This document shows positions 1,338-60,920 of a stretch of DNA of 64,000 nt, piece by piece; positions within the stretch are counted from its first letter, which is position 1; each line of letters begins with the position of its first letter. The DNA is from a virus, in the IMG/VR virus record IMGVR_UViG_3300013117_000236, positions 4,547-68,546 of that record; one strand, 5' to 3'. A model generated the notes under the pieces. The model ran no database searches. It saw nothing but the letters and a program-made list of their open reading frames with translations, and was not told the origin of the DNA. The translations under genes were made by a program, and so were the position numbers.

Positions 1338-2954
1338 TTAATCACTCAATATAAAGTTCATTAGTTGTTTACGTAAGTCAAACGCAACTACTTTTTCAAA
1401 TAGGTCGCTTTTACCTTTCATAACATCAAATATATATGATTCTAACCCATCTGAAATTAAATTAATAACCATAACTTCTTTCTTCTGGTCTAATCTATAT
1501 ACTCTATCCATGCGCTGTTTTAATACTGCATGATTCCATGGGATGTCAAAGTTAATTACAACGTTTGCAAATGGCATATTAACACCATATGCATATGCAT
1601 CTGTAGCAACTAAATACTTATGTTTTTCTTTGAATGATTTAATTACTTCTTCTTTATTAGTATCACCAGTACCTAGTATCGCGGCATCTCCTAATTCAGC
1701 TCTAATTATCTTTGCCATCCTCTTGAATCGTGTAAATATAACTGTCTTACTACCATTAACTTCATTCAAGATGGAACGTAATTCCGTCATTTTCGCTGAT
1801 GATGATTTAATATTCTCTTTATTTATTCCTGCCAAACTTCTCGCGGTAGATAGTTTAATCAAGTCTGTAGAGTTTTCTACCATAGGTAATAGTACATACT
1901 CTGTAATAGTAGTTCCAGTTCCCTCTCTCTTTATTTTTTCTTTAAGAATATATCTTATTTTCTCTCCTAATGCCTTTTGTGATGGTGTCCTCTCTATAAT
2001 TCTATCATATATAATACGCTTTGGCATGTTAGTAACATCATCTCTCTTTCTTCTAATACCAATTCTCATAAGCTTGTTCATAAACACATCTACGTTCTTA
2101 TATCGGTTTAATGACTTGAAACCAAAATTACTTGTAAACACACAATAATCATTATAAAAATCATATTTAGTCATCCATTCGGGATGTATAATATTGGCGA
2201 TAGTGTATGCATCTATTAATTTGTTCTCTACTGGAGTCCCTGTCAAACCTAATATGTATCGGGGAATGAGTCTCTTTATTCGTTGAGTTCTCTTCGCTTT
2301 TGGATTCTTCACTTTACTCGCCTCATCTATAATAAATAACTGGTATCTCGTGAGCCTATAAATGTTTAAAAAGTCTGGTAATAGTTGTTCGTAATTGATA
2401 ATATAAACTTTCTTCTTTTCATTATATTGTTCTTTTCGTTGATATTGTTGCCCTTGTACTATAATTGTATTTTTTAATAGGTGGGGATAGAACTTCTTTA
2501 TTTCATCTTTCCATTGCCATTTAATTGATTGTGGACAACAAATTACAAAGTGGTCAATGTCTCCCTTTTTCAGACGATAGTCTGCAATAGCTAATGATTC
2601 TACTGTCTTACCTAATCCCATTTCGTCAGCGATAAGTAGGTTACCATTAATTATTGCTTTCGCGAAACATTCCCTCTGAAACTTCTTTAGAAATGGATAC
2701 ATTTGGTGTGATTCTTTTAATAAGAAATTATACATCTCTTGTTGGTCTCGAGTCATAGCTTGTAACTGCTGTTTTAAACCCTCTATATTAAAACCCCAAG
2801 TTTCTAATTTAGATATTGCATCCTCTGAAACAGGAACATACCAACTTTTGTCAATAGTGTCCCATCTATTGTTCTTAATTTGTCTAACTCGGTAAATTAT
2901 TTTCGGGTCATCTACTTTAATTTGGATGTTACCCCTATAAACTCTTGCTTTCAT
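1338..2954 (-). CDS. SNF2-family SF2 helicase/translocase
   Basis: LIADEMGLGKT (motif I), IIDEAS (II), LTGTPVEN (III), QRMDRVYRLDQ (VI). Confidence 0.93.
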   Translation of the reverse strand: MKARVYRGNIQIKVDDPKIIYRVRQIKNNRWDTIDKSWYVPVSEDAISKLETWGFNIEGLKQQLQAMTRDQQEMYNFLLKESHQMYPFLKKFQRECFAKAIINGNLLIADEMGLGKTVESLAIADYRLKKGDIDHFVICCPQSIKWQWKDEIKKFYPHLLKNTIIVQGQQYQRKEQYNEKKKVYIINYEQLLPDFLNIYRLTRYQLFIIDEASKVKNPKAKRTQRIKRLIPRYILGLTGTPVENKLIDAYTIANIIHPEWMTKYDFYNDYCVFTSNFGFKSLNRYKNVDVFMNKLMRIGIRRKRDDVTNMPKRIIYDRIIERTPSQKALGEKIRYILKEKIKREGTGTTITEYVLLPMVENSTDLIKLSTARSLAGINKENIKSSSAKMTELRSILNEVNGSKTVIFTRFKRMAKIIRAELGDAAILGTGDTNKEEVIKSFKEKHKYLVATDAYAYGVNMPFANVVINFDIPWNHAVLKQRMDRVYRLDQKKEVMVINLISDGLESYIFDVMKGKSDLFEKVVAFDLRKQLMNFILSD

Positions 2955-3160
2955 TTAAATCTCCTAACCACTTCATTATAGCAAATTATAGCAGAAATTT
3001 TACGCATGAAATCGCCGATACAATTAATAACAAACGATTCATTTTTCTGAGTGAGTTTACTCATAGAAATTGCAGAACTTAATGGATAAGCTTTTAATAA
3101 TATAGCATTAATAGCAAATTTCTTTAGTTTCTTAATTTTCATATTGACCGGCCGCAACAC
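2951..3160 (-). CDS. hypothetical protein
   Basis: ORF whose stop overlaps the helicase start; start uncertain. Confidence 0.35.
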   Translation of the reverse strand: MLRPVNMKIKKLKKFAINAILLKAYPLSSAISMSKLTQKNESFVINCIGDFMRKISAIICYNEVVRRFK

Positions 3161-4923: not shown

Positions 4924-5133
4924 CTATTTTTTAGGGGGTTTCTCCTCTTCTTCTTCTATGGGCATCGGTTTTTCTTTAGCATATGGGTCGTTTTTAATTG
5001 CTAATTCTAATGTCTTGAAGTTCTGTTTACTAATTGTTCCGTCTTCTATGATTTTCACTACTCCTGCGACCACGTCATCTTGTGATTTTGTTCTAAATCG
5101 CACCTTACATAATGGACACCAATTTCTTGCCAT
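4924..5133 (-). CDS. small Zn-finger protein
   Basis: WCPLC; GGAGGTGA RBS before MARN. Confidence 0.55.
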   Translation of the reverse strand: MARNWCPLCKVRFRTKSQDDVVAGVVKIIEDGTISKQNFKTLELAIKNDPYAKEKPMPIEEEEEKPPKK

Positions 5134-5299
5134 AGTTTTCACCTCCTAACAAATCTTTCCTAATTACAAAGGGCGCAGAATTAAGCTTTCCTCCATACTT
5201 TTAGTTCGGTCTCGATTTCTTTTATTTTCTCTTTGTGGTAATTTAGAGACCATTCGAGGTCCTTAATTTTCTTTGCTTTTAGTTCTTCTTCGTTCATAG

Positions 5300-5494
5300 T
5301 TAATCACCTCCTTGTTCGTAAGTTTGTCTTTTGCCCATCTCTTTCCAGAGTGTTCGAGCGCCACCAATTAAAGTCTCTAATATAAAACGCTCGGACAAAT
5401 CTAAAGAATGTGCTTGGTCGTCGTGGTCACGTAATTTATAAAGTTGCCCAAGGATTTTATCAAGCACTTCCTGATTAGCTTTTGGTCTGTTCAT
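5300..5494 (-). CDS. hypothetical protein
   Basis: GGAGG RBS; ATG start. Confidence 0.55.
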   Translation of the reverse strand: MNRPKANQEVLDKILGQLYKLRDHDDQAHSLDLSERFILETLIGGARTLWKEMGKRQTYEQGGD

Positions 5495-5731
5495 AACTTT
5501 CGCCTCCTTTTATATAAAACGACGTCCTCGGCATTCGCCACATAATACTAATTGGCCATACTCGAAGACAAGTTCGCTTCCACTACAATTCGTGCACACC
5601 ATAGTTTCACCATTGTATTATTGGGGAGTTGTTAGAATCTGTCCCCTCCTGCTCAGAATCATGCCAGTTCAGTTAGAACCAGTCATCGTCCGCCCTTGTG
5701 TTCAACCAAGGACATCATTTTCCTATTAATA

Positions 5732-5755
5732 ATTAACTTGATACTTTAAATACTT
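5732..5755 (-). promoter_or_regulatory. archaeal BRE/TATA early promoter (copy 1)
   Basis: Minus strand AAGTATTTAAAGTAT-AAGTTAAT; near-identical copy at 7762-7785. Confidence 0.6.
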
Positions 5756-5814
5756 ATCGTAGTAGTTAAACATATATTTTCTACTAACTAGGTTGTAGGA
5801 TAGTGCGGTAAAAT

Positions 5815-6182
5815 TTTAGCTTTTTACCTCTTAAAATGCACAAAACCAAGCACCTGCGCTAGTGTTGTTTAGTTTTTTAGTATTTTACGGCCTGTGGGTA
5901 AAAAATAGAATAAGAAAGTAAGAAAAAGAAAGAGAAAGAGAAAGTATATATATCGAGTGCATCGAAATAGGGGGGATATAATATATATTATAATAATGTG
6001 TTTATTCTTATACTTCACATACACCCCGGGCATGCATCACCCCTTCCACCTCCCCCGACACACTCGCCCATACTCTATCTATCTATTACTTATATATACC
6101 CAAAGGGGGTAAAATACTAAAAAACTAAAATGCAGAGCCTCTTGCGAGCGGTTTTGTGCATTTTAAGACTTAAAACGCTAAA
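5815..6182. repeat. large symmetric inverted-repeat element, candidate replication origin or packaging site
   Basis: Blocks 5815-20/6177-82, 5829-47/6150-68, 5868-88/6109-29 and 5895-900/6097-102 are exact reverse complements about one axis (5998.5); AT-rich centre. Confidence 0.75.
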
Positions 6183-6241
6183 ATACATCACGGGAAAAAG
6201 AGCGCGGGATTTTTGTGAAACATAATAAAATGGGCGCCAGA

Positions 6242-6338
6242 GTTTAGTGACAAAACTAATAATGGGCGGGCGAACGAGGGAGTGGGCGGCCGGGTTTAGT
6301 GACAAAACTAATCTATGGGCATTAGTGCAGGTACTAAT
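6242..6338. repeat. repeated palindromic operator-like motif TTAGT-N6-ACTAA
   Basis: GTTTAGTGACAAAACTAAT at 6242-6260 and 6294-6312, variant at 6321-6338, further copy at 7311-7329. Confidence 0.7.
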
Positions 6339-6554
6339 ACATGGGCGAATGTTTATATGGGCGGGGGGGTTGATACGGTGGGTGTGATGGGCTCACAGGT
6401 CCCCGTTATAACACAAATGAAAGAAAGAAGGGGGGCTTTCACCCCCTAAATTCTAAGCAAATTCTTTATTAAAGTAATCCACTTGTTTTCTAAGTTGACT
6501 ACTTCATAACCCCATATATACTCTTTTACTTTAGGTTTCATATATACCTCCTAT

Positions 6555-6824
6555 CTATATCATCAAACATATATCTCCTTTGAAATAATAGGGTATATCA
6601 TTATGATATAGCCTATTCAAGCGCTTATGTCTTACGAGATTGTTTAAAGCTCTCGTTACTTTCTTTTTATTTTTTTCGTTTGTTACTTTTAAAGTCTCTA
6701 TAACGTCCGTTTCTGTATATGGTGTTTTTTGTTTTATTGTTTGCTCAACAGCTCCCATAAAGGAGCTTCTTTTCTTTTTACCTTTTTTTATCAATTGCTC
6801 TAAACTAATTTTTGTTTTTGACAT
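6555..6824 (-). CDS. winged-helix DNA-binding protein (basic paralogue)
   Basis: VTRALNNLVRHKRLNRLYHNDIPYYF; aligns by eye to 4142..4444. Confidence 0.6.
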   Translation of the reverse strand: MSKTKISLEQLIKKGKKKRSSFMGAVEQTIKQKTPYTETDVIETLKVTNEKNKKKVTRALNNLVRHKRLNRLYHNDIPYYFKGDICLMI

Positions 6825-6877
6825 TTATATCACATAAGGTATATGTTTGATAATATATATCATAAAATATATCTCCT

Positions 6878-7075
6878 TTAACAGCCTACGAAAAACTCTA
6901 TAATCACTTTATTTGCGTATACGTTTAATATACGTATACAAATAGATTTGTTATACTTTTTAGATTGTAATTCACATTCGTTATATAATTCTTTCATTGA
7001 AACTTTGTTGTTAATCTCGTAAATGTTTGTGTTAATTCTTTTAAACTTTTTATTAGTTATTCTCATAGACATCAC
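6878..7075 (-). CDS. hypothetical protein
   Basis: 65-aa ORF; upstream sequence resembles that of 6555..6824. Confidence 0.45.
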   Translation of the reverse strand: MMSMRITNKKFKRINTNIYEINNKVSMKELYNECELQSKKYNKSICIRILNVYANKVIIEFFVGC

Positions 7076-7401
7076 ATAAAGTATATTTTACGATATATAT
7101 GTTAGTTGATGTTGCCTGCATCAAACGCATTCTTTTAACGCGCTCTCATTACTTTATATTATCCCGTAGTTCTTTAAATACGTTGCGGTCGGGTAGAGTA
7201 TATAAACGTTTCGTTCATCGAAAGTATATCTTCGAACACATATCTTCGAGTTTGAGTTTGAGTAGAGGGGAAGGGAACTCAACTCACACCCAATAGTAAG
7301 TATGAGTAGAGTTTAGTGCCAAAACTAATTCGTATATACTTTAATATATATATTAATATATATACCACACAATATACCCACTAAAACACATATATTCTAT
7401 C

Positions 7402-7487
7402 ATATACTTTAATATATATCATAATATCCTATATACTTTAATATATATCATAATATCCTATATACTTTAATATATATCATATATCCT
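7402..7487. repeat. 29-bp tandem repeat x3
   Basis: ATATACTTTAATATATATCATAATATCCT at 7402, 7431 and 7460 (last copy has a 1-nt deletion). Confidence 0.9.
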
Positions 7488-7521
7488 ATATTTTAAAAAA
7501 AAAAAATTATATTATATATAT

Positions 7522-7722
7522 TCAATCATATATTTCTAATATATAATATAATATATCAAATACATCTTCCCTTTTTTTATCATTCCAATTATCAACATTC
7601 ATTTCACTTTCATCACAATATTCAATAAATAATTCATATAACTTTTTTAAATCAATTTTCATATTTTTATTTTTCAATTTATTAAATATTTTTTTACATT
7701 CATTTTCCATTTCATTTTTCAT
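7522..7722 (-). CDS. 66-aa protein encoded by a C-free coding strand
   Basis: GGAGGTGA RBS at 7727-7734, TATA promoter upstream, T-run downstream; protein lacks Ala/Thr/Pro/Gln/His. Confidence 0.75.
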   Translation of the reverse strand: MKNEMENECKKIFNKLKNKNMKIDLKKLYELFIEYCDESEMNVDNWNDKKREDVFDILYYILEIYD

Positions 7723-7761
7723 TTTATCACCTCCTTATTATTATATTATTCTATATATATT

Positions 7762-7785
7762 ATTAACTTTATACTTTAAATACTT
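7762..7785 (-). promoter_or_regulatory. archaeal BRE/TATA early promoter (copy 2)
   Basis: AAGTATTTAAAGTAT about 50 nt upstream of the 7722 start codon. Confidence 0.6.
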
Positions 7786-8067
7786 TTATTCCTACTTAAA
7801 TATATATATTAAACTATATAAATAATTAATCATTAATATTTAAACACATATTTTCAAACACATATTTTCAAACATCGATTCTGAAACATAGGTAATAGAG
7901 TATATATATACTTACAACCGGTACCTCCCTCACGAATTGTGCAATCTGAAACACCTCGGTCACTTTCGGAACTTTCAATCTGTCACTCTGGGGATGTAAA
8001 AAATCAAACGCCCCGATGCACAGCCCATCACATACGTTTATAAAGTTTTAAATTAATTATAATAATA

Positions 8068-8192
8068 CTGACGACGCACAAAATCAGCTGATGGTAAAAA
8101 TTTCGCTACCACGATGGAGAAAAGCCGATACGCAAGTTGATAGGAACTCGGTAATACCCTGACGGACATCATTTGATGTGCACGGTTGTCAG
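8068..8192 (+). ncRNA. candidate structured RNA or leader
   Basis: 5' CTGACGAC-GCACA pairs with 3' TGTGC-ACG-GTTGTCAG; TTTATAAA TATA box at 8037-8044. Confidence 0.45.
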
Positions 8193-8202
8193 ATAGTGGA
8201 TT

Positions 8203-8424
8203 GTGGATATGGATAAGAACTTTGGTAAATACTTTTTAGTTGTTTATAGAGACGACGAACGAGTCGTCCACCGGAAGAAACTTATTCTAGAGAGTGCCGA
8301 TGATAAGTTCTTCTATTTTCATAATCCATACAAAGACATCACGGAAATACTACCCCGATTACCCGAAGTAATAGTACGGATGGAAGAATTAAGGGAGGAT
8401 AATAATGGAAAGAAAAAGCATTAA
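8203..8424 (+). CDS. hypothetical protein
   Basis: first ORF of the plus-strand arm; overlaps the next gene. Confidence 0.5.
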   Translation: MDMDKNFGKYFLVVYRDDERVVHRKKLILESADDKFFYFHNPYKDITEILPRLPEVIVRMEELREDNNGKKKH

Positions 8425-8647
8425 GTACGAAGTCATTTCTGAAGAAACACACAAGTTCGGCAAAAACAACTTTTTAGAAGTGGCACGAAAAACTGCTACG
8501 CCAGAAGGCGGCGAAACCAACAAGTTCATCAACATCGCACGTGGTTGGTTTGGGCCAGATGGTAACAAAAGGTACAAGAACACAGTAGCTATACCTGACG
8601 ACGCAGACGTAAAGAAGTTCATATCAGAACAGTTATTGAAAATATAA
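8405..8647 (+). CDS. small archaeal-type protein, possible PC4-like nucleic-acid-binding fold
   Basis: FGKNNFLEVARK...FINIARGWFGPDG...IPDD resembles a small conserved archaeal family (recalled, not searched); GGAGG RBS. Confidence 0.55.
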   Translation: MERKSIKYEVISEETHKFGKNNFLEVARKTATPEGGETNKFINIARGWFGPDGNKRYKNTVAIPDDADVKKFISEQLLKI

Positions 8648-8656
8648 TTTTTCCCT

Positions 8657-8899
8657 GTGAATTATTATAGAAGAGAGAGTGTTACTATGGTAAGTAGTGT
8701 ATTAGGTGGAGTATGGGCCGTAATAGGAGGGTTATGCCCTATATTATATTGGGGATGTAAGATATTCTTTAACTTAATGGGAATATATTACATATACGCT
8801 CTCATAACAGGGGAAATGGATATGTATATTCACATAACGGGAATAATGGGATTATTATTCCTTATTTCAACTATAAGATGGAATTTAGGAGGTAATTAA
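8657..8899 (+). CDS. small membrane protein
   Basis: two or three hydrophobic segments. Confidence 0.55.
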   Translation: MNYYRRESVTMVSSVLGGVWAVIGGLCPILYWGCKIFFNLMGIYYIYALITGEMDMYIHITGIMGLLFLISTIRWNLGGN

Positions 8900-9030
8900 T
8901 ATGACACGATATTGTTATAAACATCAGCAAAAGTTCGTAGATGGGGCCTGTCCTGAGTGCGACAAAATAGGTTCTAACTTAGATAGAAAAGGGCTAAACT
9001 TAGATAGAAAAAGTCTAACAGGTGATAAGA

Positions 9031-9222
9031 ATGAAGTGTCCAAAGTGCGGAAAACAAAACGTGAAGTACAATCAAAAGAGACCAAAACATCCAAAAGGGA
9101 CAAAGAATTACCCGAGGAGACATTTGACACACAAATCGGGGAGAGGTGACTTGGTAAAAGATTGGAAACGAACTGATTTTACAGCTACTTGCAAGGATTG
9201 TAATTGGTCAGGAGAGATATGA
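9031..9222 (+). CDS. zinc-ribbon protein
   Basis: MKCPKCG...TCKDCNW; GGTGA RBS. Confidence 0.6.
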   Translation: MKCPKCGKQNVKYNQKRPKHPKGTKNYPRRHLTHKSGRGDLVKDWKRTDFTATCKDCNWSGEI

Positions 9223-9223
9223 T

Positions 9224-9583
9224 ATGGGAACAGATTATTACGCGAAAATTCCTGCATGGAAAACTTTATACATGTTAGGAAGAAGAGATTTCGAGGATAA
9301 TGAGTTGGAAGTATTTATTGATAAATATAAGGAGTTAGAAAAAGAGATAGAGAACTTTAATTTTGATATGTTAGAACAAAGTTATAAAGGTACTATTTCA
9401 CTTACTGATTTTGCCGATTTAATTCGACTCGCAAGAAGTGTTTATTATTTAATAGATAACTACTTCCCTAAATTCATGTTTCTGAAAATACTTAAAAGAG
9501 CAAAAGTGAAATTTGAAATTATAAATGATATAACAGTAGATATTTACGAACTTGAAAGGAAAGGTTGGTTATTAGTAGATTAA
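9224..9583 (+). CDS. hypothetical protein
   Basis: operon-like 1-nt spacing to neighbours. Confidence 0.6.
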   Translation: MGTDYYAKIPAWKTLYMLGRRDFEDNELEVFIDKYKELEKEIENFNFDMLEQSYKGTISLTDFADLIRLARSVYYLIDNYFPKFMFLKILKRAKVKFEIINDITVDIYELERKGWLLVD

Positions 9584-9584
9584 T

Positions 9585-9875
9585 ATGGAAAGAACTAAAG
9601 TTACTAGAGATAAAGAGGGCAATTTAAAGAATATCGCCTTCACCGAAAAAGAGGGTCGGAATGCGTTAGTTATTTATATTGATAAGAAAACTAAAAGACC
9701 TTCTATTTTTTGGACTGTTCAACCCGAGGATGCGCCAGCGTTCGCCGCCACCTTAGAGTTTCTAATGAAGGAGTTTAAAAATAGGATTTTCCAAGATATA
9801 CATGATGGTACTAAGTATCACGACGAGGAGGAATCTGCTCCGAAAAGAGATGGTAATTTAAGATATATAGGTTAG
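9585..9875 (+). CDS. hypothetical protein
   Basis: operon-like spacing. Confidence 0.6.
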   Translation: MERTKVTRDKEGNLKNIAFTEKEGRNALVIYIDKKTKRPSIFWTVQPEDAPAFAATLEFLMKEFKNRIFQDIHDGTKYHDEEESAPKRDGNLRYIG

Positions 9876-9885
9876 GTGGAGATGG

Positions 9886-11151
9886 ATGACACTGTTAGAC
9901 AGTTTGTGGACCTTGTGGAAAGAATACGTAGATTATTATGTTGTAGGTAATTCGGAACTTAAAAAGATAATGTTCCATGTTTTTCTAGGTGTAGTTCTAA
10001 CTACTAAAGGTTATGGCTACGCCGAAAGTGGTAAAAAGAAGAGCGTGCGTTTTCACACTTTTATGATTCAGGATTCTGGTACAGGTAAAAGTCAGATGAT
10101 GAAAGCATACCACGACCTAGTAAAAGATTACGCTGGTATTGAAATTAATAAATCATCTCGCGCAAGAATGACAGTGAAAGATAATGAAGCTTCTTTAACA
10201 GGTAGTGTTTATAGAGACCAGAGAACAAGTAAGATAGTAAAGAGAAAAGGGATGTTACATTACTTGTACACTCTTTGTTGGGATGAAGGTAGCATTTTAC
10301 TTAAACCTTCCGCGTTTATGGATATAATGACCGACGTTTTTCAGGTTGTTATGGATGAACCAGGACGTGTTTCTAAAGGAATGAAACTCGGTAATATAGA
10401 GTATCCTACTGATGTTACTTTAGTTGCGGGTTCCTATATGTTTGACGCATTTAGAGAAACATTAATAACTAAAGGATTTCTCCAGAGAATGTTTTTATTT
10501 CATAAAGAATTCACGCCTAAAGAGAAGCGAGACATTAGAATTGGTGTTAATTTAATGAAGTTACATACAGACCCTGAAAAAATAGAAAAAATAAAACGTG
10601 CAATTGCTGTACAAATTGATAGAATACCAACGTTAGTTGACCATATTATTAAGTTTAATCGCGAAGATGTATTAGTCTTTAATGAAGAACTAGAGAACAT
10701 GTATGGAAAATTCTTTGATAGACAGTTTGGAGGCGAAAAACAACGAGTTTTAGAAACATTCTATAGTAGGATTCATATTCTGGTTGATAAAGTTGCCACC
10801 ATAAAAGCGATAATAGAAGGAAAAAGTGAAGTTGACATAGAAGATTTGAAATATGCACGTATGACATGTCAAATGCATATAGATAGTTTACTCGCTTTGT
10901 TTGAATTCCTGAAAGCTGGGAAAGTTTTAACTGTTCCTGAAGAGAGACAAAACGTAATACTTTCGCTAGTTAGGCAGAATGATGGTAAATTGATGCAAAA
11001 AGAACTGATGACAAGGTTAAAAGAAATGAAAGATGCAGGTAATTGGGATTTGGGGATGAATAAAACGCTCAAACTGATAGAAAATATGGAAAGGTCTAGT
11101 AGAGTGCACGTACAAATTTTGAAAAAAGGTGCGAAACTACTTTTTGTTTGA
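9886..11151 (+). CDS. MCM-like AAA+ ATPase lacking the N-terminal domain
   Basis: Walker A DSGTGKSQ, ASLTGSVYRD (MCM h2i-like), Walker B CWDEG, FLQRM Arg-finger-like motif, possible C-terminal wHTH. Confidence 0.7.
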   Translation: MTLLDSLWTLWKEYVDYYVVGNSELKKIMFHVFLGVVLTTKGYGYAESGKKKSVRFHTFMIQDSGTGKSQMMKAYHDLVKDYAGIEINKSSRARMTVKDNEASLTGSVYRDQRTSKIVKRKGMLHYLYTLCWDEGSILLKPSAFMDIMTDVFQVVMDEPGRVSKGMKLGNIEYPTDVTLVAGSYMFDAFRETLITKGFLQRMFLFHKEFTPKEKRDIRIGVNLMKLHTDPEKIEKIKRAIAVQIDRIPTLVDHIIKFNREDVLVFNEELENMYGKFFDRQFGGEKQRVLETFYSRIHILVDKVATIKAIIEGKSEVDIEDLKYARMTCQMHIDSLLALFEFLKAGKVLTVPEERQNVILSLVRQNDGKLMQKELMTRLKEMKDAGNWDLGMNKTLKLIENMERSSRVHVQILKKGAKLLFV

Positions 11152-11933: not shown

Positions 11934-13419
11934 GGTTATTGAACCTCATCAAAAGATATTAAGAACCGGGTTACTGGGTGACCAGAGTGCGTTGTATAGG
12001 ATAATAAATAAAGGTAGACAAGGAGGTTTCTCTTTCTTACTTAATGTAGAATGTTTAATGATTGCTCAATTAATGCCCAATACTAATCAATTTTATGTTG
12101 CTACTAAAGAAGACCTCGCCGAAGATTGGTTAAAAAAGAGTGATAAGTTAGCTCGTGATGCGCGCCTCTTTCCTAATGGTGAACCAGTAATTGATATGGA
12201 TTATGTAAAGTCAAAAAATTTAATGAAATATATAAAACATTTCCCTAATAAGTTTAAGAAACAAGTTGAACACTCATTTATAATTGGTTGTGCTGCATCA
12301 CCTTCTGGTACTCAAGGAATGACAGGGATTAATATTGTTTTAGATGAGTTTGCTAGAATGAATAAAACTAAAACGTTACAGAAAGATTTATTTAACGCAA
12401 TTAGATACTTTATTTCTCAGGGTGGGCAGATGACTATACAATCTGTACCTTTAGTGAGGTCGGATTGGTTTTGGAAACTTTATGATAATGCTCCAAAGTA
12501 CATGTTGTCACCATATTATTGCCCAATAATTGAAAATTGGGAAGAAATTGATTTAAATAAAGATTTAAGAAATCAAAAACTTAAAATACCTTATTGGTGG
12601 ACTGATATTAATGAGTTAGAACAGATTAGGAGAGCAGATTTAGATTCATTTAAACAAGAGGTTTTGGGAATTCCTGCGGATATACTGTATAGATTCATAC
12701 CTCCTGAATTATGGTTATCATGTATTGATAGTACATATAAATTTAGAAATGATAATCAGGGTTTTTATAGGATTGGTGTTGATATTGGACAGAAGAGAGA
12801 TACAACAGTAGCTACTGTTGGTGAAATTATTGGTGACCACATTTGGGAACGTTATATTTATGAGTCACAAAAACCATATAATGAACAAATACCAGAATTA
12901 ATACAATTATGCGAGTGGTTTAAGCCAATAGAACTTAGGATTGATAATACTGGTGTTGGTGTTCCAATTTCTGACGCGTTAGAAGGTACTCCAGGAATGC
13001 CACCAATAAAGAGGATTGAATTTGCTTCTTATATTGAGTTGGAAAAGAAGAAAACTAGAATGCCAACTTATTTGTCAGAGTGTTTCAAGAATATGTTATT
13101 AAATAAACAATATCATGCAGTAGAGAATTCAACTGCGACACAGCATGTATTGAGAGTTGAGAAGATTGTTACTGATGCTAATGTTATAAGATTTACAGGT
13201 AAAAAAGGTAATCAAAGAGATGACCATTATTGGAGTAAGGCGATTTTAGCAGCAAGTTTTGATATGTTAAATAGAGGAGCTGTATTTTCTGTACCTAAAG
13301 AGAAAACGTTTACTTCGAAGGGGGATAAACGTAGAGCTACGGGAGTACAGAAACTAAAATCAAATGCGATAAATCAATCGTTTAGGGAAAATAGAGGAGG
13401 TAGTTATTTAGCATGGTAG
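11752..13419 (+). CDS. terL: terminase large subunit
   Basis: KGRQGGFS Walker A, IVLDEFA Walker B, IGVDIGQKRD and DDHYWS nuclease motifs. Confidence 0.9.
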   Translation: MNPMFHQHQNNVLPGQELLPEMERKKVSSTLLEDIRKVDICQVINSIFRIRNNQGKLIDYKVIEPHQKILRTGLLGDQSALYRIINKGRQGGFSFLLNVECLMIAQLMPNTNQFYVATKEDLAEDWLKKSDKLARDARLFPNGEPVIDMDYVKSKNLMKYIKHFPNKFKKQVEHSFIIGCAASPSGTQGMTGINIVLDEFARMNKTKTLQKDLFNAIRYFISQGGQMTIQSVPLVRSDWFWKLYDNAPKYMLSPYYCPIIENWEEIDLNKDLRNQKLKIPYWWTDINELEQIRRADLDSFKQEVLGIPADILYRFIPPELWLSCIDSTYKFRNDNQGFYRIGVDIGQKRDTTVATVGEIIGDHIWERYIYESQKPYNEQIPELIQLCEWFKPIELRIDNTGVGVPISDALEGTPGMPPIKRIEFASYIELEKKKTRMPTYLSECFKNMLLNKQYHAVENSTATQHVLRVEKIVTDANVIRFTGKKGNQRDDHYWSKAILAASFDMLNRGAVFSVPKEKTFTSKGDKRRATGVQKLKSNAINQSFRENRGGSYLAW

Positions 13420-55599: not shown

Positions 55600-56054
55600 A
55601 CCTTTTTACCAATAAATACTTTAGGCGGTACACAAAGCTCTTTTTCTATTTTAAAATATTTCTCATTTCTATAAAACATTTTTCTAGCAGTTTGATTTGT
55701 AACTTTTTTGGTGCGTACAATTTCTCTTAATAATTCTATTAATAATAACTTTCTACCATTTAAAATTTCCTTAATCTCATTAACACTTATTTTCTTTTGA
55801 AAGTGTTTACTTAAATGTTTACCGTTATTACTAAATAATTCTAAATTTTTAATTCTATTATCATTTCTAACACTATTTTTATGATGTACTCTTTCATTAG
55901 GTTTTAAATATCTACCTAATTTTTCTTCCATAACTAATCTATGTTCAAAAACATAAAATTTATTATGGTGGGCAAAAGGATGTTCGGGTTTATATATCAA
56001 TATGTATCCATCCCTATTAACAAATCTTCCTCCCTTCCAGTTACCTTTTCTCAT
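55596..56054 (-). CDS. HNH endonuclease (free-standing)
   Basis: NWKGG, EHRLVME, VHHKNSVRNDNRIKNL. Confidence 0.9.
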   Translation of the reverse strand: MRKGNWKGGRFVNRDGYILIYKPEHPFAHHNKFYVFEHRLVMEEKLGRYLKPNERVHHKNSVRNDNRIKNLELFSNNGKHLSKHFQKKISVNEIKEILNGRKLLLIELLREIVRTKKVTNQTARKMFYRNEKYFKIEKELCVPPKVFIGKKV

Positions 56055-56238
56055 TCAATCTCTCCTTTAATCTCTGTATCTTAGTGAATAATAAAAATGA
56101 CCATGCACAAATATCTAGGATTTCTTCTTCTACTTCGTCCTCGAGGTCTCTGTCCATAAAGGTATCTTTACCGTATTCAAGCTCCCCGATTTCTAACCTT
56201 TTGTTAATTCTTTCTGTAAACTCTTTTGATAGTTTCAT
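56041..56238 (-). CDS. MazG-like all-alpha dNTP pyrophosphohydrolase candidate
   Basis: G..EYG and EVEEEILD (EExxD) motif; located between folE and polB. Confidence 0.5.
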   Translation of the reverse strand: MKLSKEFTERINKRLEIGELEYGKDTFMDRDLEDEVEEEILDICAWSFLLFTKIQRLKERLNEKR

Positions 56239-56834
56239 AATTTTATCAACTTGAAAAATTCGTTCTTTGGACTTTTACCTTTTGGTTCTTTTAGGAATAC
56301 ACCTTTTACTGCACTAGTTACAAAATCGCCTTCGTCGCCTTGTAGTTCTGCGCACATATGTCTCGCCTTTATAGTTACTACTACTCCAAGTGGTTTTACG
56401 TTATCATTTATCCATTCTGTAATTTGTTTTGTCATTCTCTCTTGTATTTGTAATCTAGCAGCGTAATATTGTACAACCTTATCTATTTTGTTCATTCCTA
56501 ATATTTTCTTATCTGGGATAATACCTACATGCGCTTCACCAAAAAAAGGTACTATGTGATGTTCACAGAATGACCAGAACTTTACCTTCCTGATTAATAG
56601 TTCATTATACTCATCATCATTATCAAAAACAGTTATGGGGATTATATTTTTACCGAATTCACTATTTCTTGTGGTCTCATTCATAATTTGTAACTTATTT
56701 CTATAACTGTAAAAACATTTTTTATATAACCTCGCAACTCGTTCCGGTGTACAATCTATTCCCTCACGTTCAGTATCTTCTCCTATCTCTTGTAAAATTG
56801 TAAGTATTGCGCTCTCAACATTTTTTTCAATCAT
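56235..56834 (-). CDS. folE: GTP cyclohydrolase I
   Basis: TPERVAR, SFCEHHIVPFFG, RLQIQER, HMC. Confidence 0.95.
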   Translation of the reverse strand: MIEKNVESAILTILQEIGEDTEREGIDCTPERVARLYKKCFYSYRNKLQIMNETTRNSEFGKNIIPITVFDNDDEYNELLIRKVKFWSFCEHHIVPFFGEAHVGIIPDKKILGMNKIDKVVQYYAARLQIQERMTKQITEWINDNVKPLGVVVTIKARHMCAELQGDEGDFVTSAVKGVFLKEPKGKSPKNEFFKLIKL

Positions 56835-57570
56835 TTAATACCTCCTTAATCCATCTTACATTCCAATAAATCGCTAATTTTTGTTCTTCTGTAATTTCAC
56901 TTATATTAAAATAATCTTTTGGTCGTTTTACGTTATCTGGAGTTGTACCCATTAGTTTTCCGAATAAACCTAATTTAAATGGCATTGTGCTATCAATTGA
57001 TGTTATATAAGGTTTATTTAACTCAGATAAATTTTCCCAATTATCTAACGCTAATAAGTGTATATTTTTCTTAATAACGAAACTAGATTCGATTAACTTT
57101 AACAACTCAGTTCTCGGTATATTTGTGTACTGTTCTAACATGTGGTCTGGTATTGCTATTGTATTCACTCTATGCATTTCGTTTAATATGCTAAACGCTT
57201 CTACGAACTTACCAATATTTTTCGCTAATGGTATTACCATTATTTTTAAATCCTTTGGTACTACTGAGAGCATATCTTTCAATTCTTTTGTAAATTGTTT
57301 ATCACCATAATAAAAAGTGTCAGGTAATACTATATAATGTGCACCAATTAATTTCGCTTTCTCAACTAATTCTGGTACTTTAGCTGCTTCTAATCTTTCA
57401 AAATATCCATTATCTAAAATTTTTAATCCTTCTAATTTTTTCCATTCTTCTGTATACTTATTACCATCTTCAATTAAATGAGCTACAGCTAGATGTCTAT
57501 CACTACACCAAAAGTATTTATCGTTCACAAATGCTGTTGGAAGTATATTAACGAATTGCATATTAATCAA
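56827..57570 (-). CDS. TGT/DpdA-like TIM-barrel transglycosylase candidate
   Basis: ILDNGYFE, IVLPD, IHLLA, SIDST motifs; embedded in the preQ0 operon. Confidence 0.65.
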   Translation of the reverse strand: MINMQFVNILPTAFVNDKYFWCSDRHLAVAHLIEDGNKYTEEWKKLEGLKILDNGYFERLEAAKVPELVEKAKLIGAHYIVLPDTFYYGDKQFTKELKDMLSVVPKDLKIMVIPLAKNIGKFVEAFSILNEMHRVNTIAIPDHMLEQYTNIPRTELLKLIESSFVIKKNIHLLALDNWENLSELNKPYITSIDSTMPFKLGLFGKLMGTTPDNVKRPKDYFNISEITEEQKLAIYWNVRWIKEVLND

Positions 57571-58621
57571 CTAAAGGGTCTTTCATTTCAGCTTTTTGAA
57601 AAGCTTCTATACGTTCAACACAAGCTCCGCACTTCATACAGGGATTTACTTTCCCTTTATAGCAAGTATGTGTTAAACTATAATCTACATTTAACTTTTT
57701 TCCAAGAATTGCTATGTCTCCCTTATCCATTTTCAAAAATGGTGCAATAACTTCAATTCCATCTTGTACAATAGTATATTTTTTATCTCCTTTACCATGA
57801 TTTTTACCTGGTATTTTTTCAAAAAAGTATTGATGTTCTTCATACCATTTTCTAAATTGTTCTTGTCTTTTTTCTAATTTAATACTATCTTTCATTAAAT
57901 CAATAAATAATCTACAATCATGTCCAAATAGTTTGTAGGCAAACATTTCTTTTCCAGATTTCTTATGAATACCTTTTGAATGTACGCACCCCCTATTAAA
58001 AAAGAACTTTTTTATTTCTTCTAATATTACTCTATCATTTTGTGTAAATAATACTATTGGCCAGAATTCTCTATCTTTTTCTTTTGTAGTATGTCTCGAA
58101 TCTTGACCTAAAGTACCTTCACATTCCCAAAAAGCTCTAACAAATTCCGGTGTTAAAGTTCCTCTTTCTGCATTTGATGATTGGTCAAATACAGTATTAT
58201 TAAATCCATCTAGAAATCTCTTTCTACAATCCCAATATATTTCGTGGTCTCCTGAATGAGCCCCATAAAAAATCTTTGTAATTTTCATTCCTCTAGCAAA
58301 TGCAGATACTACACTTAACATTAACATATTTCGCATTGGAACAACTGTTTGGTTCATTGTAGATGATGTATAATGTCCTTCTGGAACTTCCCAATTTTCT
58401 CTTGTTAATGATGATGGTGATACCAAATTTATTACTTTTAAATCTATAATAAAGTGTTGAACACCTAATTTTTTACACGTTTTTTTCGCACATTCAATTT
58501 CTCTCTTATGTTTCTGTCCGTAATTGAAGCTAATAGCGTAAGGACTATATCCTTTATCCAATACATAATATAAAAGTGTCGTTGAATCCATCCCACCCGA
58601 CAAAACAACTACTGCTTTCAT
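57563..58621 (-). CDS. queC: 7-cyano-7-deazaguanine synthase with in-frame LAGLIDADG insertion
   Basis: LSGGMDS, YGQKH, VPMRN, YWDCR, TCY...CMKCGAC; about 135-aa insert with FVRAFWECEG. Confidence 0.93.
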   Translation of the reverse strand: MKAVVVLSGGMDSTTLLYYVLDKGYSPYAISFNYGQKHKREIECAKKTCKKLGVQHFIIDLKVINLVSPSSLTRENWEVPEGHYTSSTMNQTVVPMRNMLMLSVVSAFARGMKITKIFYGAHSGDHEIYWDCRKRFLDGFNNTVFDQSSNAERGTLTPEFVRAFWECEGTLGQDSRHTTKEKDREFWPIVLFTQNDRVILEEIKKFFFNRGCVHSKGIHKKSGKEMFAYKLFGHDCRLFIDLMKDSIKLEKRQEQFRKWYEEHQYFFEKIPGKNHGKGDKKYTIVQDGIEVIAPFLKMDKGDIAILGKKLNVDYSLTHTCYKGKVNPCMKCGACVERIEAFQKAEMKDPLVD

Positions 58622-58623
58622 AT

Positions 58624-59337
58624 TTACACTCCTTTCATATTCCCCCATAATAATACTTGTAATTGTGGTAATACTTTCAGATCTTTTATCTGTGATAATA
58701 ATTCATCGTTCTTAATTGTGTCTATTAATTTAGCATAACTCTTTAATAAGTAATGCAAACTATTAGGTGCACCTGGTGCTGGATTAAGTGTTTGAACTAC
58801 AAATTTCTCATCGGGGTAACTCTTACATAACATCTTGAGAAACTCTAAATCCTTTTCATCACCAACAACAACCTTAATTTCTCTATCAGTAATTAATGGA
58901 TTATTTATAAATCTATTAAATACATCATCATTAAATTTCATTCCTGAACTCGGTGGTTTCGGTGATAATGTTAAATAATCTACTTCACTAAACCAATCCT
59001 TAAATATACTCCCTTGTGTTTCTACTAAAATAAAATAATTAAACGAGTGTAAATAAATAATTAACTCACCTAATTCGTGTATTGCAGGGTTACCTCCACT
59101 AAATACTACACTATTACATCCTAAACTTCCTAGAGCATCTCCTATTGCTTGCTTATTCATCTCTTTCCATTCCTTACCAAATTTTTTCTCATCTCGCGCA
59201 TATTGTGTGTCACACCATTTACAATTAAAATCACAACCGGCGAATCGCACAAATGAAACTAGTTCTCCAATATTGTACCCTTCACCTTGAATTGTCGGTC
59301 CGAATATCTCTACAATCTTGAATAGTTTTTCTTTCAT
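58624..59337 (-). CDS. queE: 7-carboxy-7-deazaguanine synthase (radical SAM)
   Basis: EIFGPTIQGEG, CDFNCKWCDT, SGGNP, ETQG, SPKPPSS, PQLQ. Confidence 0.95.
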   Translation of the reverse strand: MKEKLFKIVEIFGPTIQGEGYNIGELVSFVRFAGCDFNCKWCDTQYARDEKKFGKEWKEMNKQAIGDALGSLGCNSVVFSGGNPAIHELGELIIYLHSFNYFILVETQGSIFKDWFSEVDYLTLSPKPPSSGMKFNDDVFNRFINNPLITDREIKVVVGDEKDLEFLKMLCKSYPDEKFVVQTLNPAPGAPNSLHYLLKSYAKLIDTIKNDELLSQIKDLKVLPQLQVLLWGNMKGV

Positions 59338-59744
59338 GCTAAATGCCCCGTATCCGCATATGAGTTCTCTGTTTCCCAAACTTTAACTCTTATTCCCATT
59401 ATTATCGTTTTAACATCTGCTAATTCTTTTACTATATCTCTAATTTTGAACGCTATACTCTCTGCTGTTGGTTCGTCGTCAAATTTTAAATATTTGCAAC
59501 CACATACGTTAGCAAATCCCACTAAGTTATTATCTTGTTTATTTACTAATAATGCATGGTCAAATTTGTCGTTAATCAACTCTTTAATGTGTCCGAAATC
59601 TATAACCATACCTGTTCTACTATTAATTGAACCATCTATCTCTATCTTTACTCTATATGTATGGCCATGAATATTCTTGCATAAACCTTTATGATGCATT
59701 AACCGGTGTGCCGCGTGAAACTTAATAGTTTTCATTATTTTCAT
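59334..59744 (-). CDS. queD: 6-carboxytetrahydropterin synthase
   Basis: FHAAHRL, CKNIHGHTY, DFG, FDH, PTAE, WET. Confidence 0.95.
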   Translation of the reverse strand: MKIMKTIKFHAAHRLMHHKGLCKNIHGHTYRVKIEIDGSINSRTGMVIDFGHIKELINDKFDHALLVNKQDNNLVGFANVCGCKYLKFDDEPTAESIAFKIRDIVKELADVKTIIMGIRVKVWETENSYADTGHLA

Positions 59745-60916: not shown

Positions 60917-60920
60917 ATAT

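What the first reader, a model, noticed from the sequence alone, without database searches (positions are those of the whole stretch)
7333..7876. 544-nt G-free strand containing a whole gene with its promoter, RBS and terminator, in a guanine-modifying virus
Seen: the + strand has no G between the Gs at 7332 and 7877, although C is common there. Inside lies a complete minus-strand unit: BRE/TATA (7771-7785), GGAGGTGA RBS, a 66-aa ORF (7522-7722) and a T-run (7495-7506). The mRNA has no C, and the protein lacks exactly the residues that require a C in the codon (Ala, Thr, Pro, Gln, His). Even at 5% G per base, chance is about 0.95^544, or 1e-12. The zone extends upstream of the promoter and about 190 nt past the stop, which points to selection on the DNA strand and not only on the mRNA. 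Inference: the virus encodes a 7-deazaguanine pathway, so the template strand of this gene would carry no modified base. It may be an immediate-early 'bootstrap' gene that naive host RNA polymerase can read, with a product that enables expression of the modified genome or blocks a defence. Alternatives: an mRNA insensitive to CTP depletion or C-specific RNases, or a strand that can be made without dGTP at an origin or terminus.
Basis: partly seen in the sequence, partly recalled or inferred. Interest (0 to 1): 0.93.

Follow-up and report, generated by a model that had tools for sequence, protein, structure and literature searches.

The report
Virus gene cassette without cytosine
A marine archaeal-type virus keeps one small gene and the control DNA around it completely free of the letter C on the coding strand, related viruses do the same at the same spot, and the reason is not yet proven.

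Summary
Window 7333-7876 has no G on the + strand (A215 T250 C79). The next longest G-free run in the 68.5-kb genome is 83 nt. Contigs from two studies reproduce both boundaries without a difference, so it is neither chance nor an assembly error.

The tract is a discrete cassette where the two gene arms diverge. Two copies of an ~80-nt repeat module with a tract-specific 16-nt iteron flank a 66-codon ORFan that has a GGAGGTGA ribosome site and a T12 run. C is excluded from synonymous sites, from amino-acid choice and from the non-coding flanks, so the constraint acts on the nucleic acid.

Relatives share the property but not the sequence. L004 has 673 G-free nt with the same layout. G001 has a 548-nt tract in which all 26 C are CpG. 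G002 has none. The restricted strand is the sense strand of the embedded gene in 4 of 4 cases.

The virus encodes FolE, QueD, QueE, QueC and a DpdA3-like transglycosylase. My best reading, at about 0.35, is a read strand kept free of modifiable guanine. G002 has the same enzymes and no cassette, so the link is not obligatory.

This scan has noted similar cytosine-free early genes on other viral DNA. I found no published account.

The parts
7333..7876 (-). C-restricted cassette: no C on the minus strand, which is no G on the + strand, over 544 nt
   Evidence: independent contigs
7522..7722 (-). 66-aa ORFan with C-free coding sequence; predicted three-helix bundle
   Evidence: An ATG-ORF of at least 66 aa arose in 3 of 5000 Markov and 5 of 5000 shuffled versions. 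Only itself was found among 1.84 billion representatives. pLDDT 79, no PDB match
7727..7734 (-). GGAGGTGA ribosome-binding site, 4 nt before the ATG
   Evidence: This 8-mer occurs 7 times in the genome, both strands counted. By a crude motif, 55 of 118 genes have an SD
7495..7506 (-). T12 run 16 nt after the stop codon; candidate archaeal oligo-T terminator (inferred)
   Evidence: it lies at the centre of an AT-only imperfect palindrome (I2)
7336..7477 (+). four exact direct copies of the 16-nt iteron ATACTTTAATATATAT, starting at 7336, 7404, 7433 and 7462; the last three lie in a 29-bp x3.1 tandem array (7402-7491)
7802..7817 (-). inverted iteron copy; its only mismatch puts G where the motif's single C would fall on the minus strand
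   Evidence: I4
7337..7417 (.). left copy of the flanking repeat module
   Evidence: families D6 and D7 (7337-7364 vs 7793-7820 89%; 7384-7417 vs 7842-7875 76%; spacing 456-458 nt)
7793..7875 (.). right copy of the flanking repeat module, including a 14-bp x2.4 tandem array (7842-7874)
   Evidence: inference only
7900..7911 (-). GTATATATATAC just outside the tract; a TATA box here would put a leftward start at about 7876-7878, the tract's edge (C at -1, G at +1)
   Evidence: inference only
7877..8035 (.). G+C-richer boundary block shared in kind with L004 and L001; begins GATTCTGAA, as in L004
9886..11151 (+). 421-aa P-loop helicase-like protein used as the synteny marker
56235..59744 (-). 7-deazaguanine gene set: FolE 56235-56834, DpdA3-like 56827-57570, QueC 57563-58648, QueE 58624-59379, QueD 59334-59744

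Best explanation
The tract is a self-contained gene cassette in the control hub between the two divergently transcribed arms of a marine, archaeal-type tailed virus. Two copies of an ~80-nt repeat module carrying a tract-specific 16-nt iteron flank a 66-codon ORFan with a consensus ribosome site and an oligo-T run. Selection on the nucleic acid itself keeps the whole 544 nt free of C on the gene's sense strand, which means free of G on the strand that RNA polymerase reads. The most likely purpose is this. Virion DNA carries 7-substituted 7-deazaguanines made by FolE-QueD-QueE-QueC and inserted by a DpdA3-like transglycosylase. A read strand without G then carries no modified base, so host RNA polymerase can express this first gene from incoming DNA without hindrance. 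In the relative G001, which has a different TGT-type enzyme, template G is tolerated only in CpG. I read that as a context its enzyme spares. Shown: the tract, its non-randomness, independent contigs, the layout, the property kept without sequence conservation, the agreement between restricted strand and gene sense, and the gene set. Inferred: early timing, the promoters, that the DNA is modified, that archaeal RNA polymerase is hindered by the modification, and that CpG is spared.
For: The C exclusion acts at three independent levels. Given the protein, P(all synonymous choices are C-free) is 10^-4.46. P(no Ala/Thr/Pro/Gln/His in 66 residues) is 8.7e-7. The non-coding flanks hold 47 C and 0 G. 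The ORF is an outlier among 118 genes: sense-strand C is 0, against a mean of 0.123 (sd 0.033) and a next-lowest value of 0.065. The inverted iteron copy swaps the motif's only C for G on the minus strand. Across 33 records (400,377 nt, both strands, five rules), runs of at least 200 nt occur in 4 records: this genome, L004, G001 and, more weakly, L017. L004 has 673 nt, two SD-led ORFs, flanking direct repeats 481 nt apart and the same GATTCTGAA edge. G001 has 548 nt with 26 of 26 C in CpG, against a genome rate of 0.074, giving P=3.7e-30. The ORFs of the window and L004 cassettes, and of the window and G001, show no detectable similarity. The restricted strand is the sense strand of the embedded ORF in 4 of 4 cases, although the cassette points left in the window and L004 and right in G001. 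The 244-aa model has pLDDT 91; its top PDB matches are TGT, with DpdA 7ui4 at rank 11. hhalign to the immuto-type DpdA gives probability 98.4%, E 1e-14. DpdA3 is linked to complete G replacement (PMC10516641, passages). Cultured phage immuto_13-6C, from that group, has its four longest C-free runs (158, 117, 99, 90 nt) at 68.25-69.53 kb on the sense strand, and a 508-nt run whose 11 C are all CT. Bulky 7-substituted 7-deazaG templates nearly abolish bacterial RNA polymerase transcription in vitro (PMC4838386, passages).
Against: G002 (62.4 kb, estimated 82% complete) has QueC and a 43%-identical DpdA-like gene, yet its longest run under any of the five rules is 106 nt, and none of its ORFs of at least 40 aa has less than 3.5% C. 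Every other gene of this virus has ordinary G content in its template strand and must be read from the same DNA. The other strand of the tract still carries 79 G. The in-vitro inhibition was assigned mainly to promoter recognition rather than elongation, used bacterial enzymes and non-natural substituents, and plain 7-deazaG was tolerated. The restricted zone runs more than 100 nt upstream of the likeliest promoter of the ORF, which a pure template argument explains only if another start lies at the tract's edge. L004's contig is 8.6 kb, so whether it has que genes is unknown. No modified base has been measured for this virus. RNA contigs were found only to the right of the tract. The enzyme-to-rule correlation rests on one genome of each kind.
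Confidence: 0.35

Rival explanations
1. RNA-level shield. The message, not the template, is what must lack C, because a host or viral factor acts on C in nascent or free RNA in a sequence context. Examples would be an endoribonuclease toxin or another RNA-targeting defence. A C-less early message escapes it.
For: It predicts the same strand as the best explanation, sense in 4 of 4 cases. The context-dependent exemptions (CpG in G001, CT in immuto) fit an agent with sequence specificity. It does not need the que genes, which fits G002 having them without a cassette. The product is a small ORFan, as expected of a counter-defence gene. Some earlier follow-up notes of this scan lean this way (unchecked).
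Against: No such factor is identified here. The restriction also covers DNA upstream of the likeliest promoter in the window, L004 and G001, which need not be transcribed. It does not explain why the cases I could check carry G-modification genes.
Confidence: 0.25
2. CTP-independent or ddhCTP-proof transcription. The unit can be transcribed without CTP, so it is immune to CTP depletion or to viperin-type chain terminators.
For: A G-free template needs no CTP for 544 nt. Prokaryotic and archaeal viperins that make ddhCTP appear in the literature (search listing only).
Against: The equivalent tract in G001 contains 26 C and the one in immuto contains 11 C, so CTP is needed there. There is no evidence of such a defence in the unknown host.
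Confidence: 0.07
3. Replication origin or other DNA-level strand asymmetry. The tract would be an AT-rich unwinding region with iterons, one strand of which can be copied without dGTP or dCTP.
For: The tract is 85.5% A+T. It has 4 direct and 1 inverted iteron copies, and the only other copy with 2 or fewer mismatches outside the tract is a minus-strand one at 46658-46673. It lies 240 nt from the cumulative GC-skew minimum and 2 kb from a helicase-like gene.
Against: The skew switch coincides with the switch in gene orientation, so it says little about replication. The tract holds a well-formed gene. The restricted strand flips with the embedded gene in G001 while the neighbouring helicase gene keeps its orientation. 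In immuto the C-poor stretch is an ordinary small gene in a gene array. An origin role would not by itself explain the absence of G.
Confidence: 0.08
4. Mutational erosion. Cytosines of the displaced non-template strand were lost by deamination or by an editing deaminase, without selection.
For: It is strand-specific and would affect coding and non-coding DNA alike.
Against: Loss of C to T should enrich T on the sense strand. Instead the ORF's sense strand is 50% A and 34% T. The count is exactly zero with sharp edges next to ordinary DNA. The ORF, its SD and the repeats are intact. The property persists in L004 after complete sequence turnover. G001 keeps 26 C, all in one context.
Confidence: 0.04
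5. Chance or an assembly artefact.
For: The region is low in complexity and repeat-rich, and public contigs break at the repeats.
Against: The probabilities are. Zero-difference contigs from a second study cover both edges. The same property occurs in separate contigs of relatives.
Confidence: 0.01

Closest known systems
Synthetic C-less / G-less cassettes for in-vitro transcription
   Same: A stretch of several hundred nt whose template lacks one base, so the transcript is made from three NTPs. If a start lies at 7876, the tract would behave exactly like one.
   Different: Those are engineered tools; the 'C-less' hits whose listings and abstract starts I saw are in-vitro transcription or RNA-biochemistry studies, and I did not open them. 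This one is natural, holds a gene with its translation signals, and recurs in relatives.
Viral 7-deazaguanine DNA modification systems (preQ0 pathway plus DpdA; Hutinet 2019 PMC6884629, abstract start only; Cui 2023 PMC10516641, passages)
   Same: This genome has FolE, QueD, QueE, QueC and a TGT/DpdA-fold protein related to the immuto-type DpdA.
   Different: In the passages I read, those papers describe anti-restriction protection. My 'find' on Cui 2023 returned 0 occurrences of 'transcription', and I saw nothing about G-free template genes. The 244-aa protein matches neither PF01702 nor PF20314.
Purine bias of sense strands as Rho avoidance (Dierksheide 2026, PMC13323073, abstract only)
   Same: C-poor, purine-rich coding strands that protect a nascent message. 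This genome's genes are generally C-poor on the sense strand, at 0.123.
   Different: That is a graded bias in bacteria that have Rho. This is an absolute, local exclusion that includes non-coding DNA, in a virus with archaeal-type replication genes. The archaeal factor FttA/aCPSF1 reads U-tracts, not C-rich RNA (PMC13675443, passages).
PeSL (promoter-early, stem-loop) cassettes of T4-type phages
   Same: Small ORFans, each flanked by repeated promoter-type modules, in a hypervariable early region. L001 has three small ORFs that each follow a near-identical upstream module.
   Different: A different virus group with no T4-type stem-loop. As far as I know, base exclusion is not part of the PeSL description.
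Iteron-type replication origins of plasmids and viruses
   Same: AT-rich, with direct and inverted copies of a specific short motif near a helicase gene.
   Different: Origins are not known to lack one base on one strand, and this tract encodes a protein.

Membership tests
Viral 7-deazaguanine DNA modification system | preQ0 synthesis genes FolE, QueD, QueE and QueC | tested here: met
   PF01227 2.5e-49, PF01242 2.9e-29 and PF06508 4.1e-62. TIGR03365 QueE scores 221 bits against a cut-off of 206, and FolE subfamily NF006826 scores 165.7 bits against a cut-off of 162, while the folE equivalog TIGR00063 stays below its cut-off (156.4 against 181.6).
Viral 7-deazaguanine DNA modification system | a DpdA-family DNA guanine transglycosylase | tested here: met
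   No PF01702 or PF20314 match. However, the model (pLDDT 91) matches TGT best and DpdA 7ui4 at rank 11, and the profile matches the annotated immuto DpdA at 98.4% probability. This is membership by fold and profile, not by a curated model.
Viral 7-deazaguanine DNA modification system | 7-deazaguanine derivative present in virion DNA | not testable with these tools
   Needs LC-MS or nanopore analysis of virus DNA.
C-less cassette (functional analogue only) | no G in the template over the whole unit | tested here: met
C-less cassette (functional analogue only) | transcription start at the upstream edge of the G-free run | tested here: inconclusive
   A TATA-like GTATATATATAC at 7900-7911 would put the start at about 7876-7878. 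Other TATA-like boxes lie inside the tract, and no RNA ends are available.
Iteron-type replication origin | AT-rich region with several copies of a specific binding motif | tested here: met
   85.5% A+T; 4 exact direct copies and 1 inverted copy
Iteron-type replication origin | replication starts there | not testable with these tools
   The GC-skew minimum at window 8112 coincides with the change in gene orientation, so it cannot settle the question.
Rho-avoiding purine-biased genes | host uses the termination factor Rho | tested here: inconclusive
   The host is unknown. RFC small subunit, Hef/Xpf and PolB are of archaeal type, and a BHB-flanked circular RNA lies next to the tract. Archaea lack Rho (own knowledge).
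Deaminase hypermutation tract | excess of the deamination product (T on the C-depleted strand) and damaged genes | tested here: not met
   The sense strand of the ORF is A 50%, T 34%. The ORF and its SD are intact.
PeSL-type early gene cassette | small ORFans bounded by repeated promoter modules in a variable region | tested here: met
   Flank repeats in the window and L004. The region differs in content among the window, L001, L002 and L004.
PeSL-type early gene cassette | T4-type early promoter and stem-loop terminator | tested here: not met
   Archaeal-type TATA boxes. The terminator scan of 6500-9000 found no G+C hairpin terminator inside the tract: its 3 hits lie at 6750, 8357 and 8728.

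The most novel reading that the evidence does not exclude
Viruses that rewrite their guanines carry 'launch cassettes' whose read strand contains G only in contexts their own DNA transglycosylase does not modify: none at all with a DpdA3-like enzyme, and CpG only with the G001-type enzyme. That would mean host RNA polymerases are measurably hindered by natural 7-deazaguanine derivatives. It would also mean the sequence grammar of a cassette reports the specificity of the virus's modification enzyme.
Probability: 0.25. Interest if true: 0.92.

Novelty: categorically new. Interest (0 to 1): 0.8.

Why it matters
A natural transcription unit from which one of the four bases is wholly excluded, in coding and non-coding parts alike, is not something I could find described. 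If the cause is the virus's own guanine modification, it exposes a hidden cost of DNA hypermodification: the host polymerase must read the modified DNA. It would also expose the virus's workaround and give a sequence-only way to predict which viruses modify G and in which contexts. If the cause is instead an RNA-level agent, it points to an unrecognised host factor that acts on cytosine. Either way the test is direct. The cassette is also a ready-made natural C-less template for archaeal transcription work.

Tried and rejected
- **Close DNA relatives in the phage collection:** none.
- **Single-sequence searches of viral contigs:** neither the helicase-like protein nor the 66-aa ORF gave confirmed relatives.
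- **Profile search of prokaryote genomes for proviruses:** none, so the host was not identified.
- **Family and structure searches on the small ORFs:** PHROGs on ten small ORFs around the tract gave nothing useful. Rfam on 5000-10000 gave one chance-level hit. The 66-aa protein has no Pfam match even at E<=10, no homologue, no PDB fold match and only generic three-helix look-alikes in the atlas.
- **Homology between the cassette ORFs:** the window's ORF has no significant similarity to those of L004 or L001.
- **A viral CpG methylase as the cause of G001's CpG exemption:** no PF00145 or PF01555 match in G000, G001 or G002. These records may be incomplete.
- **DpdA4 (PF20314):** no match in the three records.
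- **A Rho-like explanation through the archaeal factor FttA:** the review passages say it reads U-tracts.
- **RNA support for the tract:** the two metatranscriptome runs gave contigs only at 8082-8183 and 8279-8572. No cover over the tract shows nothing either way.
- **Sigma-70 promoter scan:** uninformative in this AT-rich region, with 23 sites against 17.3 expected.
- **Checks not done:** I did not fetch Campylobacter phage CPt10, CAjan or phiSM, and I ran no negative-control phages without que genes. The association with G modification therefore remains anecdotal.
- **Material I could not see:** supplementary files of Cui 2023 (lists of DpdA3/DpdA4 viruses), which may bear on the subfamily call.
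Full report
**The observation**

The + strand of the window has no G from 7333 to 7876, a run of 544 nt (A215, T250, C79). The next longest G-free run in the window, and in the whole 68,546-bp genome, is 83 nt. The longest C-free run is 80 nt. The flanking 500 nt on each side have balanced G and C (74/76 and 96/100), so the edges are sharp.

Chance does not explain it. At half the local G+C content the chance of no G is 1.6e-18. If the 79 G/C positions followed the left arm's skew, the chance that all are C is 2e-19.

It is not an assembly artefact. Contigs of a DNA run from a second study (X2) match 7114-7431, 7402-7460 and 7817-7967 with no difference, which covers both edges. Contigs of X1, which may be the source sample, cover 6700-7329, 7402-7460, 7527-7654 and 7681-7844, also with no difference. 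No exactly matching contig covers 7461-7526 or 7655-7680 (two X1 pieces with 3-4 other letters lie on 7487-7543), because contigs break at the repeats.

**The virus**

The contig has a 119-bp terminal overlap. It encodes an SNF2 helicase, PolB, an RFC small-subunit homologue, a Hef/Xpf-type nuclease, a PD-(D/E)XK nuclease, a large glycan-synthesis block and many proteins without a family. PolB is closest to haloarchaeal tailed viruses, at 28% identity. Genes are preceded by TTTATATA/TTTATAAA boxes 40-60 nt before the start codon. The runs that hold the sequence are labelled marine or seawater metagenomes. I call it an archaeal-type tailed virus; the host is unknown.

**Anatomy of the tract**

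The tract lies where leftward genes give way to rightward genes, 240 nt from the cumulative GC-skew minimum. It contains the following.
- **A 66-codon minus-strand ORF (7522-7722).** It has GGAGGTGA four bases before the ATG and a T12 run 16 nt after the stop.
- **A tract-specific 16-nt motif.** ATACTTTAATATATAT occurs in four exact direct copies (starting at 7336, 7404, 7433 and 7462), the last three within a 29-bp x3.1 tandem array. One inverted copy lies at 7802-7817. Outside the tract the only copy with two or fewer mismatches is a minus-strand one at 46658-46673.
- **Two repeat modules flanking the ORF.** The DNA left of the ORF (7337-7417) and right of it (7793-7875) are direct repeats of each other, 456-458 nt apart.

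The ORF is very likely real. An ATG-ORF of this length arose in 3 of 5000 Markov simulations and 5 of 5000 shuffles of the tract. By a crude motif, SD sites precede 55 of 118 genes. The product is predicted as a three-helix bundle (pLDDT 79 from a single sequence). It has no homologue among 1.84 billion representatives and no fold match.

**What kind of constraint this is**

The ORF's sense strand has no C. The 118 genes of the genome average 0.123 (sd 0.033), with a next-lowest value of 0.065, and the ORF's neighbours are ordinary. So this is an island, not a gradient.

The exclusion is seen at three independent levels.
- Given the protein, the chance that every synonymous choice is C-free is 10^-4.46.
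- The chance of having no Ala, Thr, Pro, Gln or His in 66 residues is 8.7e-7.
- The non-coding flanks hold 47 C and 0 G on the + strand.

There is a fourth sign. In the inverted copy of the iteron, the motif's only C would fall on the minus strand, and it is G there instead. The constraint is therefore on the nucleic acid strand, not on the protein.

**Relatives**

The 421-aa helicase-like neighbour (9886-11151) has 43 relatives besides itself (44 hits). A profile of 29 of these sequences brought in 2 viral and 30 metagenome loci. I scanned 33 records (400,377 nt) on both strands under five rules: no C, or C allowed only before A, C, G or T. Runs of at least 200 nt occur in four records.
- **This genome:** 544 nt.
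- **L004:** its helicase is 52% identical. The tract is 673 nt with no G on the helicase's strand and lies 0.9-1.5 kb upstream of that gene. It holds two minus-strand ORFs (48 and 39 aa) with GGAGGAG and GAGGTGAT sites and has flanking direct repeats 481 nt apart. Its right edge begins with the same GATTCTGAA.
- **G001 (the contig of L001):** its helicase is 48% identical. The tract is 548 nt on the + strand in which all 26 C are followed by G. Only 7.4% of that genome's C are CpG, giving P=3.7e-30, and the next longest such run is 110 nt. It covers 105 nt upstream of a 119-aa + strand ORF, the ORF itself and 83 nt downstream, and it abuts the same kind of boundary block.
- **L017 (28% identical):** several weaker runs of 219-309 nt.

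G002 (the contig of L002; 54% identical, 62.4 kb) has nothing. Its longest run under any rule is 106 nt. There the leftward arm starts directly with a winged-helix-type gene that is homologous to the gene following the cassette in L004. The cassette is therefore an add-on to a variable hub. The window's ORF has no detectable similarity to the cassette ORFs of L004 or L001. Among 1,901 ORFs of at least 40 aa in these records, the only C-free ones are the window's ORF and two in L004.

**Strand logic**

The cassette points left in the window and L004 and right in G001. In each case, and also in the cultured phage below, the restricted strand is the sense strand of the embedded gene (4 of 4). This ties the constraint to transcription of the unit rather than to a fixed replication direction.

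The restricted zone does extend beyond the likeliest promoter of each ORF. In the window it runs more than 100 nt beyond the box at 7771-7785. Either the whole unit is transcribed from its outer edge, or the constraint is read on DNA. For the first possibility, a TATA-like GTATATATATAC at 7900-7911 would place a start at about 7876-7878, with C at -1 and G at +1. That placement is inference only.

**The guanine-modification link**

The genome encodes FolE, QueD, QueE and QueC. Between QueC and FolE lies a 244-aa protein that no Pfam model recognises. Three lines identify it.
- Its model (pLDDT 91) matches tRNA-guanine transglycosylases best, with the DNA preQ0 insertase DpdA (7ui4) at rank 11.
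- Its profile matches the annotated DpdA of Flavobacterium phage immuto_13-6C at 98.4% probability over 211 columns.
- Cui et al. 2023 place the immuto phage's enzyme in DpdA3, the subfamily linked to complete replacement of G, and report about 30% replacement for the archaeal DpdA4 virus HVTV-1 (PMC10516641, passages).

In immuto_13-6C the four longest C-free runs (158, 117, 99 and 90 nt, against 59 nt for the longest G-free run) cluster at 68.25-69.53 kb on the sense strand. One gene has 5 C in 357 nt, and a 508-nt run has 11 C, all before T.

Raindlova et al. 2016 found that templates with 7-vinyl-, 7-ethynyl- or 7-phenyl-7-deazaguanine almost abolished transcription by E. coli and B. subtilis RNA polymerases. 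Unsubstituted 7-deazaguanine was tolerated, and the effect was assigned mainly to promoter recognition (PMC4838386, passages).

Against an obligatory link, G002 has QueC and a 43%-identical copy of the same DpdA-like gene but no cassette. All other genes of this virus have ordinary template G.

G001 carries a different, PF01702-type enzyme and shows the CpG-only rule. The window, with the DpdA3-like enzyme, shows the no-G rule. That is one genome of each kind, so it is suggestive and testable but not evidence of cause.

**What the CpG exemption excludes**

G001's cassette needs CTP 26 times. A general explanation by CTP-free or ddhCTP-proof transcription is therefore unlikely. None of the three records has a PF00145 or PF01555 DNA methyltransferase. 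A context-dependent exemption fits an agent with sequence specificity: either a DNA transglycosylase, which is my best reading, or an RNA-cutting factor, which is the main rival. Rho avoidance, proposed for bacterial purine bias (PMC13323073, abstract), does not carry over, because the archaeal factor FttA/aCPSF1 reads U-tracts (PMC13675443, passages). Deamination is unlikely because the sense strand is A-rich rather than T-rich, the count is exactly zero and the gene is intact.

**Comparison with what is known, and novelty**

The nearest functional analogue is the engineered C-less cassette of in-vitro transcription. My three searches for natural cytosine-free or guanine-free viral genes listed no description of one; I judged this from listings and abstract starts and did not open the papers. 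The library holds open-access papers and preprints only. Earlier notes of this scan report similar cytosine-free early genes on other viral DNA, many beside 7-deazaguanine genes, with the cause left open. Those are unchecked notes. The one claim I tested, a C-poor gene in an immuto-type phage, held in immuto_13-6C.

This window adds four things:
- an archaeal-type case in which non-coding repeat modules share the rule;
- a syntenic series of relatives;
- a context-relaxed (CpG-only) variant in a relative with another enzyme type;
- a relative with the enzymes but no cassette.

**Verdict**

The feature is real, selected, strand-specific and tied to a small gene cassette. Its cause is not shown. 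I put 0.35 on a read strand kept free of modifiable guanine, 0.25 on an RNA-level shield, and smaller odds on the rest.

Noticed in passing
window 8082-8183 (context 8062-8203): An RNA-library contig (run X5, depth 8.2) joins 8183 back to 8082. Its length of 132 equals 102 + 30, as a k=31 assembler gives for a 102-nt circle. In the predicted fold both junction sites lie in 3-nt bulges on opposite strands, separated by a GCAC/GUGC helix and closed by an 8-bp outer helix. That is a bulge-helix-bulge layout, the substrate of the archaeal splicing endonuclease. It is probably a circular viral small RNA 200 nt right of the tract, and it supports an archaeal host. The fold's z-score is only -0.95.
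   Followed up: partly
L017 5385-5693: A distant relative has a G-rich (about 27% G), apparently non-coding stretch just after its helicase gene. It has a 219-nt C-free run, and 309 nt if C is allowed before T. The same locus has further C-poor runs at 6563-6730 and 12350-12584 and, on the minus strand, at 2733-3005.
   Followed up: partly
L001 8147-8210, 8500-8550, 9165-9215: Three small rightward ORFs are each preceded by a near-identical upstream module (TTTAAATAATACGTATTA...AAACGAGGCGAT-type). It looks like a promoter-plus-leader unit reused for each cassette gene.
   Followed up: no
window 7877-8035; L001 9640-9745: The G+C-richer block beside the tract carries repeated GTCACYYT-type motifs in the window and in L001. 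L004 shares the GATTCTGAA edge. These may be binding sites of the control hub.
   Followed up: no
window 57563-58648: QueC is 361 aa and matches the QueC model in two stretches, so it carries a large insertion. A first-stage note calls the insertion a LAGLIDADG domain. A free-standing LAGLIDADG gene (60470-60982) and an HNH gene (55596-56054) lie nearby.
   Followed up: no
L002 8919-9689: The relative without a cassette instead has, in the same hub, a 256-aa Cys- and Thr-rich protein that appears to have a signal peptide and a C-terminal anchor.
   Followed up: no
MW353177.1 68172-68679: In cultured Flavobacterium phage immuto_13-6C, a 508-nt stretch around gene 127 has 11 C, all followed by T. 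The genome rate is 0.318 and the next longest such run is 135 nt.
   Followed up: partly
window 7076-7332: About 250 nt between the tract and the next leftward ORF hold no convincing ORF, but they do hold short repeats (GAGTTT x2.7; AGTTTGAGTAGAG / AGTATGAGTAGAG). This could be a leader or a small RNA.
   Followed up: no
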